Assembly (NCBI RefSeq): GCF_030028105.1
Contig: NC_092402.1
Location: 49,500,329-49,564,328 of the forward strand
Reading direction: 5' to 3'
DNA from: Mobula birostris
Taxonomy: Eukaryota
Length of the DNA stretch: 64,000 bases
The notes under the pieces are model-generated. The model was not told the origin of the DNA, made no database searches, and saw only the letters and a program-made list of their open reading frames with translations. Both the position numbers and the translations under genes were made by a program. Numbering within the stretch: the first letter of the stretch is position 1; each line of letters opens with the position of its first letter. This document shows, one piece after another, positions 8,193 to 13,409 of this stretch.

Positions 8193-8396
8193 TCAATAGT
8201 TGCCTGTATTAAAATGATTCGAAGGGTTTCCTGTAGGATGTCCAAAGACACGGGCTACCAAAGATGAAAATGACTGAAATCTCCGCAAAGTAACAAACAT
8301 TGTGCAGTTCAATATCCAATCATTGATCTGGTGCACATCTGTGACATCGTTGTTGGTGACCTTGCTGTCCGTGGCATCAGTGCTGTTATCTGAGGT
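8193..8396 (-). CDS. IL23A: IL-23 p19 coding exon 4 (helix D, stop)
   Basis: Acceptor tttatgtttcag|. TSDNSTD...INDWILNCTMFVTLRRFQSFSSLVARVFGHPTGNPSNHFNTGNY* matches p19 PWQRLLLRFKILRSLQAFVAVAARVFAH. The spliced ORF is 203 aa with no frameshift. Confidence 0.9.
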   Translation of the reverse strand, partial: TSDNSTDATDSKVTNNDVTDVHQINDWILNCTMFVTLRRFQSFSSLVARVFGHPTGNPSNHFNTGNY

Positions 8397-9955
8397 CTGA
8401 AACATAAACGTATCAACCATTAACCAGGTCACAAAATTGCCCTTCTAATACAGCAGCTTGATGTCTCACATATTGTATTCATTTTTCAAAGTAAGGGTGT
8501 TGCGGACATTCATTGCCCATCACCAGTTGCTCTTGAGAAGATGGTTGTAAGGATATCTTCTTGATTAACTGCAGCCCTTGTGGTGAAGGTGCATCCCCAA
8601 CGTACCATTCAAGAGGACTGCTTTGTCCTCAATGATCTTGAGCATTTTGTTGGTGCTGTACCTATCCTGGTGCGTTCCTTCACACTCCTTCCTGACTTGT
8701 ACCTTATGGATGGTCAGAGGTTCTGGGGTGCCAGAAGGCAAATCACTCACCACGTGAGCTGGATATTTACCTAGCTGGTCCAACTAAGTTTCTGTTCAAT
8801 GGTGATCCCAGGATGTTGATAATGAGAGGCTCAACAATGGTGATGCCTTGTAACATCATGGGTAGGTGGTTTAACTCTCTTTTGTTGGAGATGGTCATTG
8901 CCTGGCACTTTTGTAGTGAAAGTGTTATTTCTACTTCTCACCTCAGACCTGAATGTTGTCTAGGTATTACCGCATAATATGAACAGACTGATTAATTTTA
9001 TAATATTCCATTGTATTCACAACCCGGACAATCATCAGTAAGCATTCCTACTTCTGACCTTGTAATGAAAGAAAGCACATTGATGAAACAGATAAAAATG
9101 GTTGGGTTGAGAAACCCCTGTAGCACTGACCCAGGACTGAGATGACTGGAAGCTGGAAGGTGCAATGGGTTAATGCATCTCTGGAAATTGATTTTAAATC
9201 TAATGCATAAGTCACAGCATAAAAATCAATCCAAAAACACTGACATTGCAAATCGTTCCTTTTCGCATGCAACCCTCTTAACCCTCTGGTTCACAGCAAC
9301 ACATCAAGCAAACATGAAACATTTGTGGGTGGAGTATATACAAAAATACTTTATATACTGAAATATAGTATAAACGGTTGGTTCAACTAGACACAAGCTA
9401 GTTTTCAATTTCCATATTGTTCAGGGTTTATGAAGATCCATTTTGAAACAATGTTCCTTCATACATCCATTTTTCCCATCAAGGTACAATATGTTAACAA
9501 AGGTAAGACCTCATGACATATTTTTCCTGATTCCTTTAAGAACAGTCCGTTCCTTTAACAAGTTATGACTGTTTACTCCAAAGCTGCATCCCTTAAATAA
9601 GACTACTTGGTCCAACTGGTTTCATGCTGTTGCAGGAAGGTTTTATTAGCTTTCTATAATTAATGTTTCCCTTTATCTATGTTTATTTCCACAGCTGCTA
9701 AAGTTGGATCTTTATCACCCACAGCTGCCTTCGTGGCACTTACTTCGTTGCTTGTGAATCTTCCAGCACAAAAGCAATACACAAACCAGGCATCCTGATT
9801 AGCTTTGAAAATCTGTTGCTCTAAGCTATTAAAAAAAAGTTCATTTATTAAGCATCACTCCCCAGATGATTGACTCTACTCTATTGACCAATCCTTCAAG
9901 CCTTGCAAAGTACCATCCCATCTCCAAACTTCTTATTTGTACAACTATGTATTAC

Positions 9956-10108
9956 CTTGATTGTCTTGAGAAGATCCAAGATCATTTTTGAAAGATTATC
10001 TGCAAATGTCCAAACATCGCTGCCATGTTTTGACACACTCACTTTTACCAGTTGGTTAAACTGATTGTGATAGTATAACAAGCCTTCCTTAATTTTCTTC
10101 AGGCATGT
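9956..10108 (-). CDS. IL23A: IL-23 p19 coding exon 3 (helices B-C)
   Basis: Acceptor ctcttccag|, donor AAG|GTAATA, 153 nt. TCLKKIKEGLLYYHNQFNQLV...KMILDLLKTIK matches p19 FCLQRIHQGLIFYEKLL (IL-6/IL-12 family CLxxIxxGLxxY signature). Confidence 0.9.
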
Positions 10109-11029
10109 CTGGAAGAGTCCAAAGGGATATTACCATAAGTAAAACCAATGTATGCAGTGTTTACCTGTGTCCATGTTAATATCCAGTCCCATTTAGGTTG
10201 CTACAATTCAGTGCTTTGCGTCCTGGTCTTCAACGTAATTGGCATCCCTCGTGTTGTGTCTGATGATTGGCAGCACTGGGGTAAAATAATATCTCTGGCC
10301 AAAACCACCATAAAACCAGAAAGACCTTTTAGTCATGCTAGGGTCAGATTTATAAGCCCCATGAACTCTCTGACAGCTCTCAGGTGTGTGTGGTTAGGCA
10401 GTGAGCAATGCTAGACTATGGTTTGGTGGACAATATCGCAGCCATATTGAAACCCATTCTCACCCAAGATCAAAGTACTCTTCACCAAGGCCCCTGAATA
10501 ACAATAGGGTGTGTTTTTCAGTCCAAGAGCATTGTATCAAATAACATGACAGCCAATTGTGGTCATTCTCAAGACATGAACAATGCCTGTTTTTAATTTC
10601 TCTGAATAACCAAGTGTGAGCTGTCTACTTGCATCTCTGATAGTGGACTGGTTTAACTCAGCAGGCCACCTTCAGAGAGCAGTTAGGTACTAGGATGAAC
10701 ATGGACTGAGGCAGAGGAATTCTTCACCTGTTGAAATCCACACAGTGGGGCCATATGCAGAGTATTACTGCAGGTATTTCTGTAAACATGGGGTGCCCAT
10801 GCATGTGAAGTACAACCCCTCCAGAGGCCAGACAAAGAAATATTGAAGGTCAGCAAAATCAGGAAATGCCTATAAAAGTCTACAAGTTTAATGCAGTGCT
10901 ACATGGTGAGAAGGTTACACACTGGTCCAAAGGAAAGAAAAGCATTTCAGAGCACTGGAGAAGGGGAGGGAAAATGGGACTAAAACTCACTGGGTTAGTA
11001 GGATAATTACATTGAATATACAAGTTCAG

Positions 11030-11760
11030 CCCATCACTTCCAGTACCATCTGCCTGAACATGGGCTATATCCCTCTAATCCTTGCCTCTTCATGTCTCAA
11101 TGCCTCTTAAATGTTGCTGATATTTGGTACTACCACCTCTCCAGCACCTACCACCTCCTGTGTTTCATAAAAAAGCTTGCCTCATAAATCTCCTTTAAAC
11201 ATTCCCCCTCATCTTCAACCTATGTCCTCCCATATTTGACATTTCCACCCTAGAAAAAGACTTTATTTATCCTATCTAATAATGTTATGTGCTTCTCTCA
11301 TTATTTTGTATACTTCTGAGGTTGCCTCTCAGCCTCCGATGTTCCTGAGAAAACAATTGAAGTTTGCAAGCAATCTCTCTTTATAGCAAATACATTCCAA
11401 GCAATATCCTGGTGAATTTCTTCTAGACACTCTCCAAAGCCTCCACATCCTTCCTACAGCGTGGAGACCAGAACGGGAGACAATACTCTAAAATGTAGCC
11501 TGATTAAAGTTTTATACAGATTTAACTTTCTTCCTGGTTTATACTCAGTACCCTCGCCAAAGAAGGAAAGCATGCTATACACTTCCTTTACCACCCGATC
11601 CAGTTATGTCGCCACTCTCAGCGAGGAATGGACTTGCACCTCTGTATGTCAGTGCTCTTCAGGGTTTTGCTATTTTCTGTCCATTCTTATACTGGACCTC
11701 CAAACGTGCATCAACTCACACTTGTCTTTATTAAATTCCATCTGCCATTTCTCCTTCTAA
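11030..11760 (-). mobile_element. Degraded CR1 LINE 3' fragment in IL23A intron 2
   Basis: Resembles the reverse complement of CR1 RT C-terminal sequence seen in other copies (44482-45420). Confidence 0.7.
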
Positions 11761-12024
11761 ATGTCCAACTGACCGCTTCCGAGGGCGACCAGAGCAACCA
11801 GAGCAACCTAGGGTGTAATGGGACTGGAGTCATATCTAAGCCTAGACTAGCTAAGGACGTCAGGTGGATTTTTCAACCATTCGACGTGGTCGCGGTCACT
11901 TATATGGATTTTAACTTGTCTTTAAAAATAATCATTTATACCACAGAGGCATTTGGTCACAATTTCTGTCATGATTCCAGGAACGTAACCAATCCACCGC
12001 TTTACCCTGCCAGCTGAAGCTTAC

Positions 12025-12126
12025 CTCCGGTAAGGTCTTGAGCGTGTCGGGGTCACAGTTGTCACTGACTTCTATGCGTGGAATATTTTCACTGCCATTC
12101 AGCTGAAGATTTTCCAAGCAACCCTC
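12025..12126 (-). CDS. IL23A: IL-23 p19 coding exon 2 (AB loop)
   Basis: Acceptor tttcttttttccggcag|, donor GAG|GTAAGC, 102 nt. EGCLENLQLNGSENIPRIEVSDNCDPDTLKTLPE matches the p19 motif VPHIQCGDGCDPQGL. Confidence 0.9.
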
Positions 12127-13256
12127 CTGCCGGAAAAAAGAAATCGAAGTTCTTGTTACGGTGTTTGTGATTTGAACACCCCATAAATTGTTCGTTGTAT
12201 TATTGCGGTTGACGCAGGTAGTGCTCAGCCCTGATTGTCACAATCTGGCCGTAGCGCCGGGTCTGAACTTCCTCGCATCCAGGGGCTATTGAGAATTTCT
12301 TCTTTGTCATTCTGTCGCATTCATTACTACCCCATCCTCCGCCTCCCACCGCATGCCAATCTCCGTCGCACAGACCTCAGCGCAACAATTTATCTTTTAA
12401 AGGACCTACAGTTGTCAAACAAAAGAGCTAGATCAGGTGATGTTGGGGAAGGTATCAAATGTTGGGTCACAGAGAATATTAAGAAAAAACTGCAGATGCT
12501 AGAAATCGGAAATGAAGACAGAAGCTGTTGGAAACACTCAGCAGGTCGGGCAATATCTGTGTGTGTGTGAAGACAGAGAGAGACAGAGAGGTGAGAAAGC
12601 CCACTAATATGGGGCGGTGGAGTGAATGTTCTTTTGATCTTTCGAACCAAAGCCCTGCGTTAGGGTAAGGGTGATAATATCTGTAGGGAGAGAATGAGGA
12701 GAGTCCAAAATTTTGCGGGCATTTATACGAATTCGATTGAGTTCTGTTGAGGTTTCAGTGAGCACATGCAGACTACCTCCGTTTAGGTTGCGAGGGAATC
12801 TTAGTTTATTCCACACGATTGGTACATTTATCTACGAAACTAATCGTCTGAAGATTTGAGAATTACCATAGGAAATAAGTTATCCCAATATACCATCATT
12901 TTGTAATCAGTTTAAGTTAATAGTTTTGTATGGATTTGAAAGCTTCATACATAGAAAGCAAGTTCAAAATTATTGAAAGTGATTTAAACCTTACCTAAAT
13001 TATTGTAAAATTGAACTAATTAAGCTCTAAATAATAACAAATATAATTATGGAAATTCATTATTGCGAAGTTTTTTTGTATATTTAGTTCATTTTCTAAA
13101 CAATTAAACGCTTAAAGATGCAGTGTAAGTTTGCTTTACAGCACTTAATTGAGAAATACCGATTTCTTCTAGTGCAAACTTTCTTTGTAGTGGGATTACT
13201 TATTGATTAAGCCTTAAACAAATTGGGCAAATAATATTCAATTTGCAGCAACTCAC

Positions 13257-13409
13257 CGGTCTATGTGTGTAGTTAAAAATCTTTGAAGTGAGATTCCTGG
13301 AAAGAGTTCGACAGGATATCCAACTGGGCCGCTGATCTGATTCTGATTCCGCGACGCCGGCCACACCGAGTAGCCAGACCAGCGCTAGCACCCCGAAGCA
13401 TCCCTCCAT
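13257..13409 (-). CDS. IL23A: Interleukin-23 subunit alpha (p19), coding exon 1 (signal peptide + helix A)
   Basis: ATG at 13409 gives MEGCFGVLALVWLLGVAGVAESESDQRPSWISCRTLSRNLTSKIFNYTHRP (51 aa). It has a hydrophobic signal peptide, and PSWISCRTLSRNL resembles human p19 PAWTQCQQLSQKL. Donor CCG|GTGAGT, phase 0. Head-to-head with PAN2 as in mammals. Confidence 0.9.

What the first reader, a model, noticed from the sequence alone, without database searches (positions are those of the whole stretch)
8193..13409. Intact IL-23 p19 gene in a probable cartilaginous fish, supported by synteny
Seen in sequence: four phase-0 exons, a signal peptide, CDP and CLxxIxxGLxxY motifs, helix-D Trp163 (aligning with the receptor-contacting Trp of human p19) and ARVFxH. 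Established: human IL23A lies head-to-head with PAN2, and whether sharks have Th17-axis cytokines has been debated because these genes diverge too fast for simple searches. The gene appears here only as four unlabelled ORF pieces.
Basis: partly seen in the sequence, partly recalled or inferred. Interest (0 to 1): 0.7.

Follow-up and report, generated by a model that had tools for sequence, protein, structure and literature searches.

The report
Ray interleukin-23 p19 gene, already annotated
This is a ray's intact, spliced gene for the p19 half of the inflammatory signal interleukin-23, already named in public databases and already reported in sharks; it and its partner p40 lack the cysteines that link the pair in mammals, so they likely assemble without that bond, and the gene likely sits on the X chromosome.

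Summary
Confirmed but known. Four phase-0 GT-AG exons give a 203-aa protein identical to a record that NCBI names interleukin-23 subunit alpha-like [Mobula birostris]. All 3 introns are joined in 4 of 4 runs laid; a fifth, upstream exon was missed. Pfam IL23 scores 52 bits against IL6 24.5; best solved relatives are human p19. Cartilaginous-fish p19 was published in 2018 (PMC6238376). PAN2 is head-to-head, but STAT2 is not to the left: a STAT2-like gene lies 0.8 Mb to the right. My trees were weak (46/96). The twist: the p40-linking cysteine is absent in 13 of 13 elasmobranch and 9 of 9 named bony-fish p19 but present in 10 of 10 named tetrapods, and p40 has Ser at its partner site (11 of 11), so IL-23 here is likely non-covalent. 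The scan noted this before on shark and skate genomes. New here and inferred only: a Cys54-Cys167 pair at the receptor site, a second p40-like gene also without the cysteine, and likely X-linkage.

The parts
13587..13693 (-). Upstream exon (5' untranslated part plus ATG at 13599 of the 209-aa isoform; true 5' end not fixed)
   Evidence: Joined to 13414 in runs X1 and X4; five-exon model equals P0002
13415..13586 (-). 172-nt phase-1 GT-AG intron holding an NF-kB-like site (13521-13530) and a TATAAA (13496-13501); possible second, inducible promoter (inferred)
   Evidence: the kB pattern occurs 8 times in the 64-kb window, so one hit is weak by itself
13257..13409 (-). Coding exon 1: signal peptide and helix A (Trp30, Cys33)
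12025..12126 (-). Coding exon 2: AB loop with Cys54 (12118-12120), Val71 in place of the p40-linking Cys (12067-12069) and Cys75 of CDP
   Evidence: (Pfam IL23 E 0.054 alone)
9956..10108 (-). Coding exon 3: helices B and C, Cys87
8193..8396 (-). Coding exon 4: CD loop, helix D with Trp163 (8316-8318), Cys167 (8304-8306), Arg185 (8250-8252), GNP tail, stop
6954..8192 (-). 3' untranslated region with 7 ATTTA pentamers and AATAAA at 6959-6954 (end inferred from the signal)
   Evidence: Contigs cover it to 7129 without a gap; motifs
53037..59482 (+). PAN2, first coding exons, head-to-head neighbour
   Evidence: Pfam PAN2_N E 1.4e-14; ATG at 53037 behind an acceptor; further exon frames at 58555-58725 and 59237-59482

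Best explanation
This is the ray's IL23A gene, spliced into an mRNA for a four-helix p19 cytokine subunit that is predicted to be secreted and to pair with p40 without the interchain disulfide, likely signalling through IL-23R as in mammals. Shown: gene structure, splicing, family identity, and the absence of the linking cysteine in p19 (Val71) and in both p40-like genes found (Ser). Predicted: helix D and the AB loop dock on p40 through Arg185, which is invariant in all p19 aligned, into the conserved Tyr/Glu pocket. Inferred: Trp163 is the IL-23R contact; Cys75-Cys87 is the usual internal disulfide; the covalent link was added to p19 in tetrapods; expression is inflammation-inducible (kB-like site, AU-rich 3' region). 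Inferred with less support: Cys54 and Cys167 form an extra disulfide at the receptor site, and the gene lies on the ancestral elasmobranch X.
For: Identity with P0001/P0002 named IL-23 alpha-like. Pfam IL23 52.4 bits over cut-off 27, IL6 24.5 under it. Top 11 solved-sequence matches are p19 (E 4e-10 to 1e-8), IL-6 follows at 1e-3; top 7 Foldseek matches are IL-23 p19. Of 30 hits at E <= 0.001 among 1.84 billion proteins, 1 is a shark p19; of the other 29, 27 match Pfam IL23, 1 has no Pfam match (a hake protein that aligns as p19), 1 is an unrelated repeat protein, none is IL-6 or p35; of 20 looked up by name, 14 are named IL-23 alpha and 6 are unnamed or hypothetical. The genome holds separate IL-6-like, p35 and G-CSF-like genes that score 32, 25, 23, 12 and 12 bits on a bony p19 profile against 96 for exons 2-4 here. 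Splicing in 4 of 4 runs. Cys at position 71: 0 of 13 elasmobranchs, 0 of 9 named bony fish and lungfish, 10 of 10 named tetrapods, 9 of 9 unnamed rows. p40 Ser at the human Cys177 site in 11 of 11 rows and in a second p40-like gene. Complex model of this p19 with catshark p40: score 0.74, best of 3 controls 0.00; mark reached by 51 of 78 solved complexes and 2 of 108 mismatches; runs agree in at least 75% of contacts, partner pLDDT at least 73; Arg185 touches p40 246-248 and Val71 touches Ser179. A review states that the link is dispensable for IL-12 formation and activity (PMC7600943, passages).
Against: My trees do not settle orthology: p19 formed one side of a branch at only 46/96 support, and in the first tree p35 fell inside the elasmobranch p19 on a long branch and the clade tests did not finish. 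The bony p19 set was picked by similarity to these proteins, so the profile test is partly circular. The single-chain model is weak (pLDDT 58.9) and IL-6 follows p19 closely in Foldseek. The complex pass may come from memory of solved human IL-23, used a cross-species pair, and shows likeness rather than binding. In grass carp the p40 paralogue without the cysteine formed no disulfide-linked heterodimer with p35 on non-reducing gels (PMC8481787, passages), and human p19 C54S is secreted less well (PMC6739322, passages). The p35 gene here keeps a Cys near the linking site (placed by eye against a recalled human motif), which could point to a p40 that I did not find. The runs are only guessed to be RNA and carry no tissue label. 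IL-23R was not searched in this genome.
Confidence: 0.82

Rival explanations
1. It is p19, but it is still joined to p40 covalently, through another cysteine (Cys33, Cys54 or Cys167) or through a p40 paralogue that I did not find.
For: The ray chain has an odd number of mature cysteines (33, 54, 75, 87, 167), so one is free. The p35 gene keeps a Cys near its linking site. Genome searches score only the best candidates, so a third p40 could be missed.
Against: Both p40-like genes found have Ser at the site; 11 of 11 elasmobranch p40 rows do too. None of Cys33, 54 or 167 is listed in the modelled interface (an unlisted residue is uncertain). Human p19 also has free helix-A cysteines that serve chaperone control (PMC6739322).
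Confidence: 0.12
2. It is p19 by descent but works without p40: a self-folding, glycosylated monomer, or a partner of EBI3, stabilised by an extra Cys54-Cys167 bond.
For: Cys54 and Cys167 are invariant in 13 of 13 elasmobranchs; 6 N-glycosylation sequons here against 0 in the rodent p19. Human p19 stripped of its free cysteines is partly secreted alone (PMC6739322).
Against: Arg185 and the helix-D face are invariant, and p40 keeps the matching pocket residues; the model docks them as in human IL-23. Cys33, a retention signal in the human protein, is kept.
Confidence: 0.1
3. It is another IL-6-family gene (IL-6, G-CSF or p35 paralogue) that resembles p19.
For: Weak Pfam IL6 match (24.5 bits); IL-6 close behind in Foldseek; unresolved trees.
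Against: PAN2 head-to-head and STAT2/STAT6-like genes within 0.9 Mb; separate IL-6, p35 and G-CSF-like loci elsewhere; the G[ND]P tail after helix D is shared with 9 of 9 named bony-fish p19; published phylogeny (PMC6238376).
Confidence: 0.02

Closest known systems
NCBI 'interleukin-23 subunit alpha-like' isoforms X2 and X1 [Mobula birostris] (P0001, P0002)
   Same: 100% identical to the four-exon and five-exon models.
   Different: Nothing in sequence; the annotation is automatic and says nothing on the cysteines.
Cartilaginous-fish IL-23 p19 of Redmond et al. 2018 (PMC6238376) and 12 other shark and ray records
   Same: 63-87% identity in the database hits; Cys54, 75, 87, 167, Trp163, Arg185 shared.
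   Different: 8 of 8 sharks have a C-terminal Cys at position 203 that this ray and 3 other batoids lack. I read the paper's IL-6 section and passages, not its figure or sequences, so I did not compare its p19 sequence with this one.
Human IL-23 (p19 disulfide-linked to p40; PDB 5MXA, 6WDQ, 8CR8)
   Same: Helix-A Trp/Cys, CDP, Cys75-Cys87 pair, site-3 Trp, site-1 Arg, four-helix fold.
   Different: No linking Cys in p19 or p40; no second helix-A Cys; extra Cys54 and Cys167 (the latter at the place of human Leu160, a second receptor hot spot); six sequons; GNP tail; STAT2 not adjacent.
Bony-fish and lungfish p19
   Same: No linking Cys (0 of 9), G[ND]P tail (9 of 9), Trp163 and Arg185 (9 of 9).
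   Different: About 20-29% identity; teleost p40a/b keep the partner Cys (PMC8481787), whereas the elasmobranch p40 rows do not.

Membership tests
IL23A / p19 orthology group (Pfam PF16649) | Scores above the curated IL23 cut-off and better than sister families | tested here: met
   52.4 bits vs cut-off 27; IL6 24.5
IL23A / p19 orthology group (Pfam PF16649) | Long-chain four-helix bundle with N-terminal signal peptide | tested here: met
   Helices 27-45, 85-106, 115-134, 162-188 at pLDDT 58.9; top Foldseek hits p19; hydrophobic N-terminus
IL23A / p19 orthology group (Pfam PF16649) | Internal disulfide pair (human mature C58/C70), site-3 Trp, site-1 Arg | tested here: met
   Cys75, Cys87, Arg185 invariant in 33 of 33 rows; Trp163 aligned to human Trp; roles from PMC6739322 and PMC7600943
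IL23A / p19 orthology group (Pfam PF16649) | Four phase-0 coding exons, spliced | tested here: met
   that human IL23A has this layout is recalled, not from a call
IL23A / p19 orthology group (Pfam PF16649) | Synteny with PAN2 and STAT2 | tested here: inconclusive
   PAN2 head-to-head met; STAT2-like gene 0.8 Mb away on the other side and named by elimination only; human order is recalled
IL23A / p19 orthology group (Pfam PF16649) | Monophyly with bony-vertebrate p19 | tested here: inconclusive
   46/96 support with five own-genome outgroups; not recovered; published support 0.95/97% (PMC6238376)
IL23A / p19 orthology group (Pfam PF16649) | Forms a heterodimer with p40 and signals through IL-23R | not testable with these tools
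   Only a structure model (0.74 vs 0.00, possibly from memory)
Tetrapod-type disulfide-linked IL-23 | AB-loop Cys in p19 (human C73) paired with p40 C199 | tested here: not met
   Val71 in p19; Ser in both p40-like genes
IL-6 / G-CSF (PF00489) or IL-12 p35 (PF03039) | Best family score and locus | tested here: not met
   IL6 below cut-off, no IL12 match; those genes lie at other loci

The most novel reading that the evidence does not exclude
The ancestral jawed-vertebrate IL-23 was a non-covalent heterodimer; sharks and rays keep that state in p19 and in both p40 genes, staple the AB loop to helix D at the receptor-binding site with their own Cys54-Cys167 disulfide, and carry IL23A with STAT2 and STAT6 on a 300-million-year-old X chromosome without full dosage compensation, so females would make more IL-23 than males.
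Probability: 0.3. Interest if true: 0.6.

Novelty: already known. Interest (0 to 1): 0.27.

Why it matters
The gene itself adds little: it is annotated and its presence in cartilaginous fishes is published. It does contradict a 2025 survey that dates p19 to the bird and mammal era (PMC12162339, passages). The cysteine pattern suggests that the interchain bond and its quality-control role came late, and offers a natural model of a linker-free IL-23. If the gene is X-linked with incomplete compensation, a key Th17-type cytokine would be sex-biased in sharks and rays, which can be tested with existing male and female data.

Tried and rejected
First exon boundaries for exons 2 and 4 were off by a few bases and corrected. 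Single exons alone find almost nothing: 1 of 4 hits Pfam IL23 weakly, exon 3 finds no cytokine in the PDB. No second p19-like gene in the window or by a genome search with exon 4 (only best candidates scored). No run on record as RNA was listed. The 103-codon frame at 17735-18043 looked gene-like but has no Pfam match, lies beside a decayed reverse-transcriptase-like stretch (by eye) and had no cover in 4 runs (no cover is not proof); the Atlas gave no answer for it. Trees were inconclusive. STAT2 could not be named by best hit: two pieces matched STAT1 better than STAT2. The long N-terminal extensions of two skate records match the TATA-bearing intron region here and are likely annotation overrun (by eye). 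Cys-Cys distances could not be measured: model coordinates are not returned. Paper searches: 'il23a, shark, synteny' 0 papers; 'il23a, elasmobranch' 0; 'p19, IL-23, interchain disul, teleost' 2, 'p19, p40, fish, inter-chain disul' 2 and (20 listings, none relevant by title) gave no statement on the missing Cys in sharks or rays; subscription fish-immunology papers on p19 are not in the library and may state it for teleosts. Supplements held as text for four sex-chromosome papers did not contain il23a, pan2 or stat2; figure-only or unheld supplements may list the gene. The IL-12 structure paper PMC313992 was not held.
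Full report
Observation. The four pieces are real. On the minus strand, 13409-13257, 12126-12025, 10108-9956 and 8396-8193 join through three phase-0 GT-AG introns (1130, 1916, 1559 nt) into a 203-residue frame with a hydrophobic N-terminus, CDP, CLKKIKEGLLYY, Trp163 and ARVFGH. A profile of 23 bony-vertebrate p19 sequences ranks these four frames first to fourth of 2145 frames in the window, and scores exons 2-4 at 95.8 bits against 10.6 for the best of 500 shuffles. Seven public runs were listed, none on record as RNA; I laid four. All three joins stand in 4 of 4, from two coded organisms and two studies, and one contig matches 7129-13413 without a changed letter. 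Two of the four also join a fifth exon (13587 to at least 13693) through a 172-nt intron. That intron holds a kB-like site and a TATAAA, which may be a second promoter; this is untested.

Identity. The four-exon and five-exon models equal P0001 and P0002 letter for letter, which NCBI names interleukin-23 subunit alpha-like isoforms X2 and X1 [Mobula birostris]. Twelve more shark and ray proteins at 63-87% identity were found, nine with the same name. Pfam gives IL23 52.4 bits (cut-off 27) and IL6 24.5. The best 11 solved sequences are p19. A weak model (pLDDT 58.9) has four long helices, and its top seven Foldseek matches are p19, with IL-6 close behind. A search of 1.84 billion representatives gave 30 hits: one shark p19, 27 that match Pfam IL23, one hake protein without a Pfam match and one unrelated repeat protein. 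Of 20 looked up, 14 are named IL-23 alpha and 6 are unnamed or hypothetical. The genome has separate IL-6-like, p35 and G-CSF-like genes, which score 12-32 bits on the p19 profile. My trees, with only five partial own-genome outgroups, were not decisive: p19 was one side of a branch at 46/96 and was broken by a long p35 branch, whose clade tests did not finish.

Synteny. PAN2 begins at 53037 on the plus strand, head-to-head. The 200 kb to the left hold gelsolin-family, EF-Ts and methyltransferase exons and no STAT motif (a motif scan, not a full gene search). Genome searches found six STAT loci: two on C7 and four on this contig. The one at 50.30-50.38 Mb is of the STAT1/2 class; its pieces match STAT1 slightly better than STAT2, and I call it STAT2 by elimination. 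It lies about 0.8 Mb to the right, beyond a STAT6-like gene.

Mechanism. Human p19 is tied to p40 by C73-C199, binds p40 through a helix-D arginine and IL-23R through W156 and L160 (PMC7600943, passages). Here the linking position is Val71. It is Val or Ile in 13 of 13 elasmobranchs, not Cys in 9 of 9 named bony fish and lungfish, and Cys in 10 of 10 named tetrapods and 9 of 9 unnamed rows (alignment, which held 5 of the 13 elasmobranchs, used longer cluster members for two hits and dropped the repeat protein). The p40 gene on C8 has Ser where human p40 has Cys177, in an ungapped alignment, as do 11 of 11 elasmobranch rows and a second p40-like gene on C5. Arg185 is invariant in 33 of 33 p19 rows and p40 keeps the matching PYAEE and HSYF motifs. 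A model of this p19 with catshark p40 scored 0.74 against 0.00 for the best of 3 controls (mark reached by 51 of 78 solved complexes and 2 of 108 mismatches; runs agree in at least 75% of contacts, partner pLDDT at least 73), with Arg185 on p40 246-248 and Val71 on Ser179. Human IL-23 is solved, so this pass may be from memory and shows likeness, not binding. The most likely reading is a non-covalent p19-p40 pair that signals through IL-23R; the receptor was not searched here and is taken from PMC6238376 (passages). Against it: carp p40c, which lacks the cysteine, gave no linked heterodimer with p35 (PMC8481787, passages); human C54S is secreted less well (PMC6739322, passages); and the p35 gene here keeps a Cys near its linking site.

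Two further points are inference. Cys54 (start of the AB loop) and Cys167 (four residues after Trp163, the place of human Leu160) are invariant in 13 of 13 elasmobranchs. In human IL-23 these two elements flank the receptor's N-terminus, so a disulfide between them is plausible; I could not measure it. Second, this contig carries Stat2-like, Stat6-like, Hedgehog and activin-receptor genes together with STAT3/STAT5-like genes. PMC12318234 (sections 6 and 7 and passages) lists Stat2, Stat6 and Dhh on the X of five sharks and rays, describes a fused X1 in this order whose old-X part is single-copy in males, and reports about 1.5-fold female-biased expression; PMC10620051 (passages) ties the shark X to human chromosome 12. 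IL23A sits inside that block, so X-linkage is likely (about 0.75), with no depth data to show it.

What is known. Redmond et al. 2018 verified cartilaginous-fish p19 by phylogeny (section 16 read). A 2025 survey still dates p19 to birds and mammals (PMC12162339, passages), which this gene and the fish records contradict. A duck paper lists the linking Cys for tetrapods only (PMC6744436, passages). PMC2946394 and PMC4929537 were seen as passages and added nothing on this point. Searches found no statement of the missing cysteines in sharks or rays; subscription papers on fish p19 were out of reach. The scan's own notes report the same gene and the missing cysteine on four other shark and skate windows; I had reached that reading before looking. 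None mentions X-linkage.

Verdict. The finding is right and ordinary: an annotated, published gene. Interest 0.27, carried by the testable side points on assembly and sex linkage.

Noticed in passing
G000:C38 (window at 49.50-49.56 Mb): The contig carries STAT6-like (50.02-50.07 Mb), STAT2-like (50.30-50.38 Mb), a Hedgehog gene (66.4 Mb) and activin-receptor domains (26.2, 55.9 Mb), plus STAT3/STAT5-like (41.4-41.7 Mb) and a G-CSF-like gene (46.86 Mb). This fits the myliobatiform X1 chromosome (old X fused to an autosome) of PMC12318234; gene names are by recall or elimination.
   Followed up: partly
G000:C5:196.36 Mb (L065, L066, L078): A second, divergent p40-like gene (31-47% identity to shark p40 over three exons; Pfam IL12p40_C 18 bits, under cut-off) that also has Ser at the linking site.
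   Followed up: partly
G000:C5:61.99 Mb (L058, L059): IL-12 p35 gene; it keeps a Cys near the linking position although neither p40-like gene has the partner Cys. Unexplained.
   Followed up: partly
G000:C4:130.76-130.83 Mb and C23:0.41-0.42 Mb (L068-L074): At least four IL-6-like loci, two of them near-identical tandem copies.
   Followed up: partly
Alignments A2 and A4: A C-terminal Cys after the GNP tail is present in 8 of 8 sharks, several ray-finned fishes and a caecilian but lost in this ray; it may pair with helix-A Cys33, which would be left free here.
   Followed up: no
window 13415-13586: The TATA-bearing stretch of the first intron is conserved in skate records, where it is translated as a likely false N-terminal extension (P0004, P0005).
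   Followed up: partly
window 14000-53000: The 39-kb gap to PAN2 is filled with repeats: LINE reverse-transcriptase fragments (44482-45477, 48749-49834), a hAT-like transposase remnant (40076-41928) and Tc1/mariner-like pieces (47672-48190, 56907-57512); labels recalled from motif appearance. PAN2's non-coding first exon was not located.
   Followed up: no
L013, L016, L017 (100-150 kb left of the window): Gelsolin-repeat (advillin-like), EF-Ts and lysine-methyltransferase exons; in humans the recalled counterparts lie about 1.4 Mb from IL23A on chromosome 12, so local order has been shuffled.
   Followed up: partly
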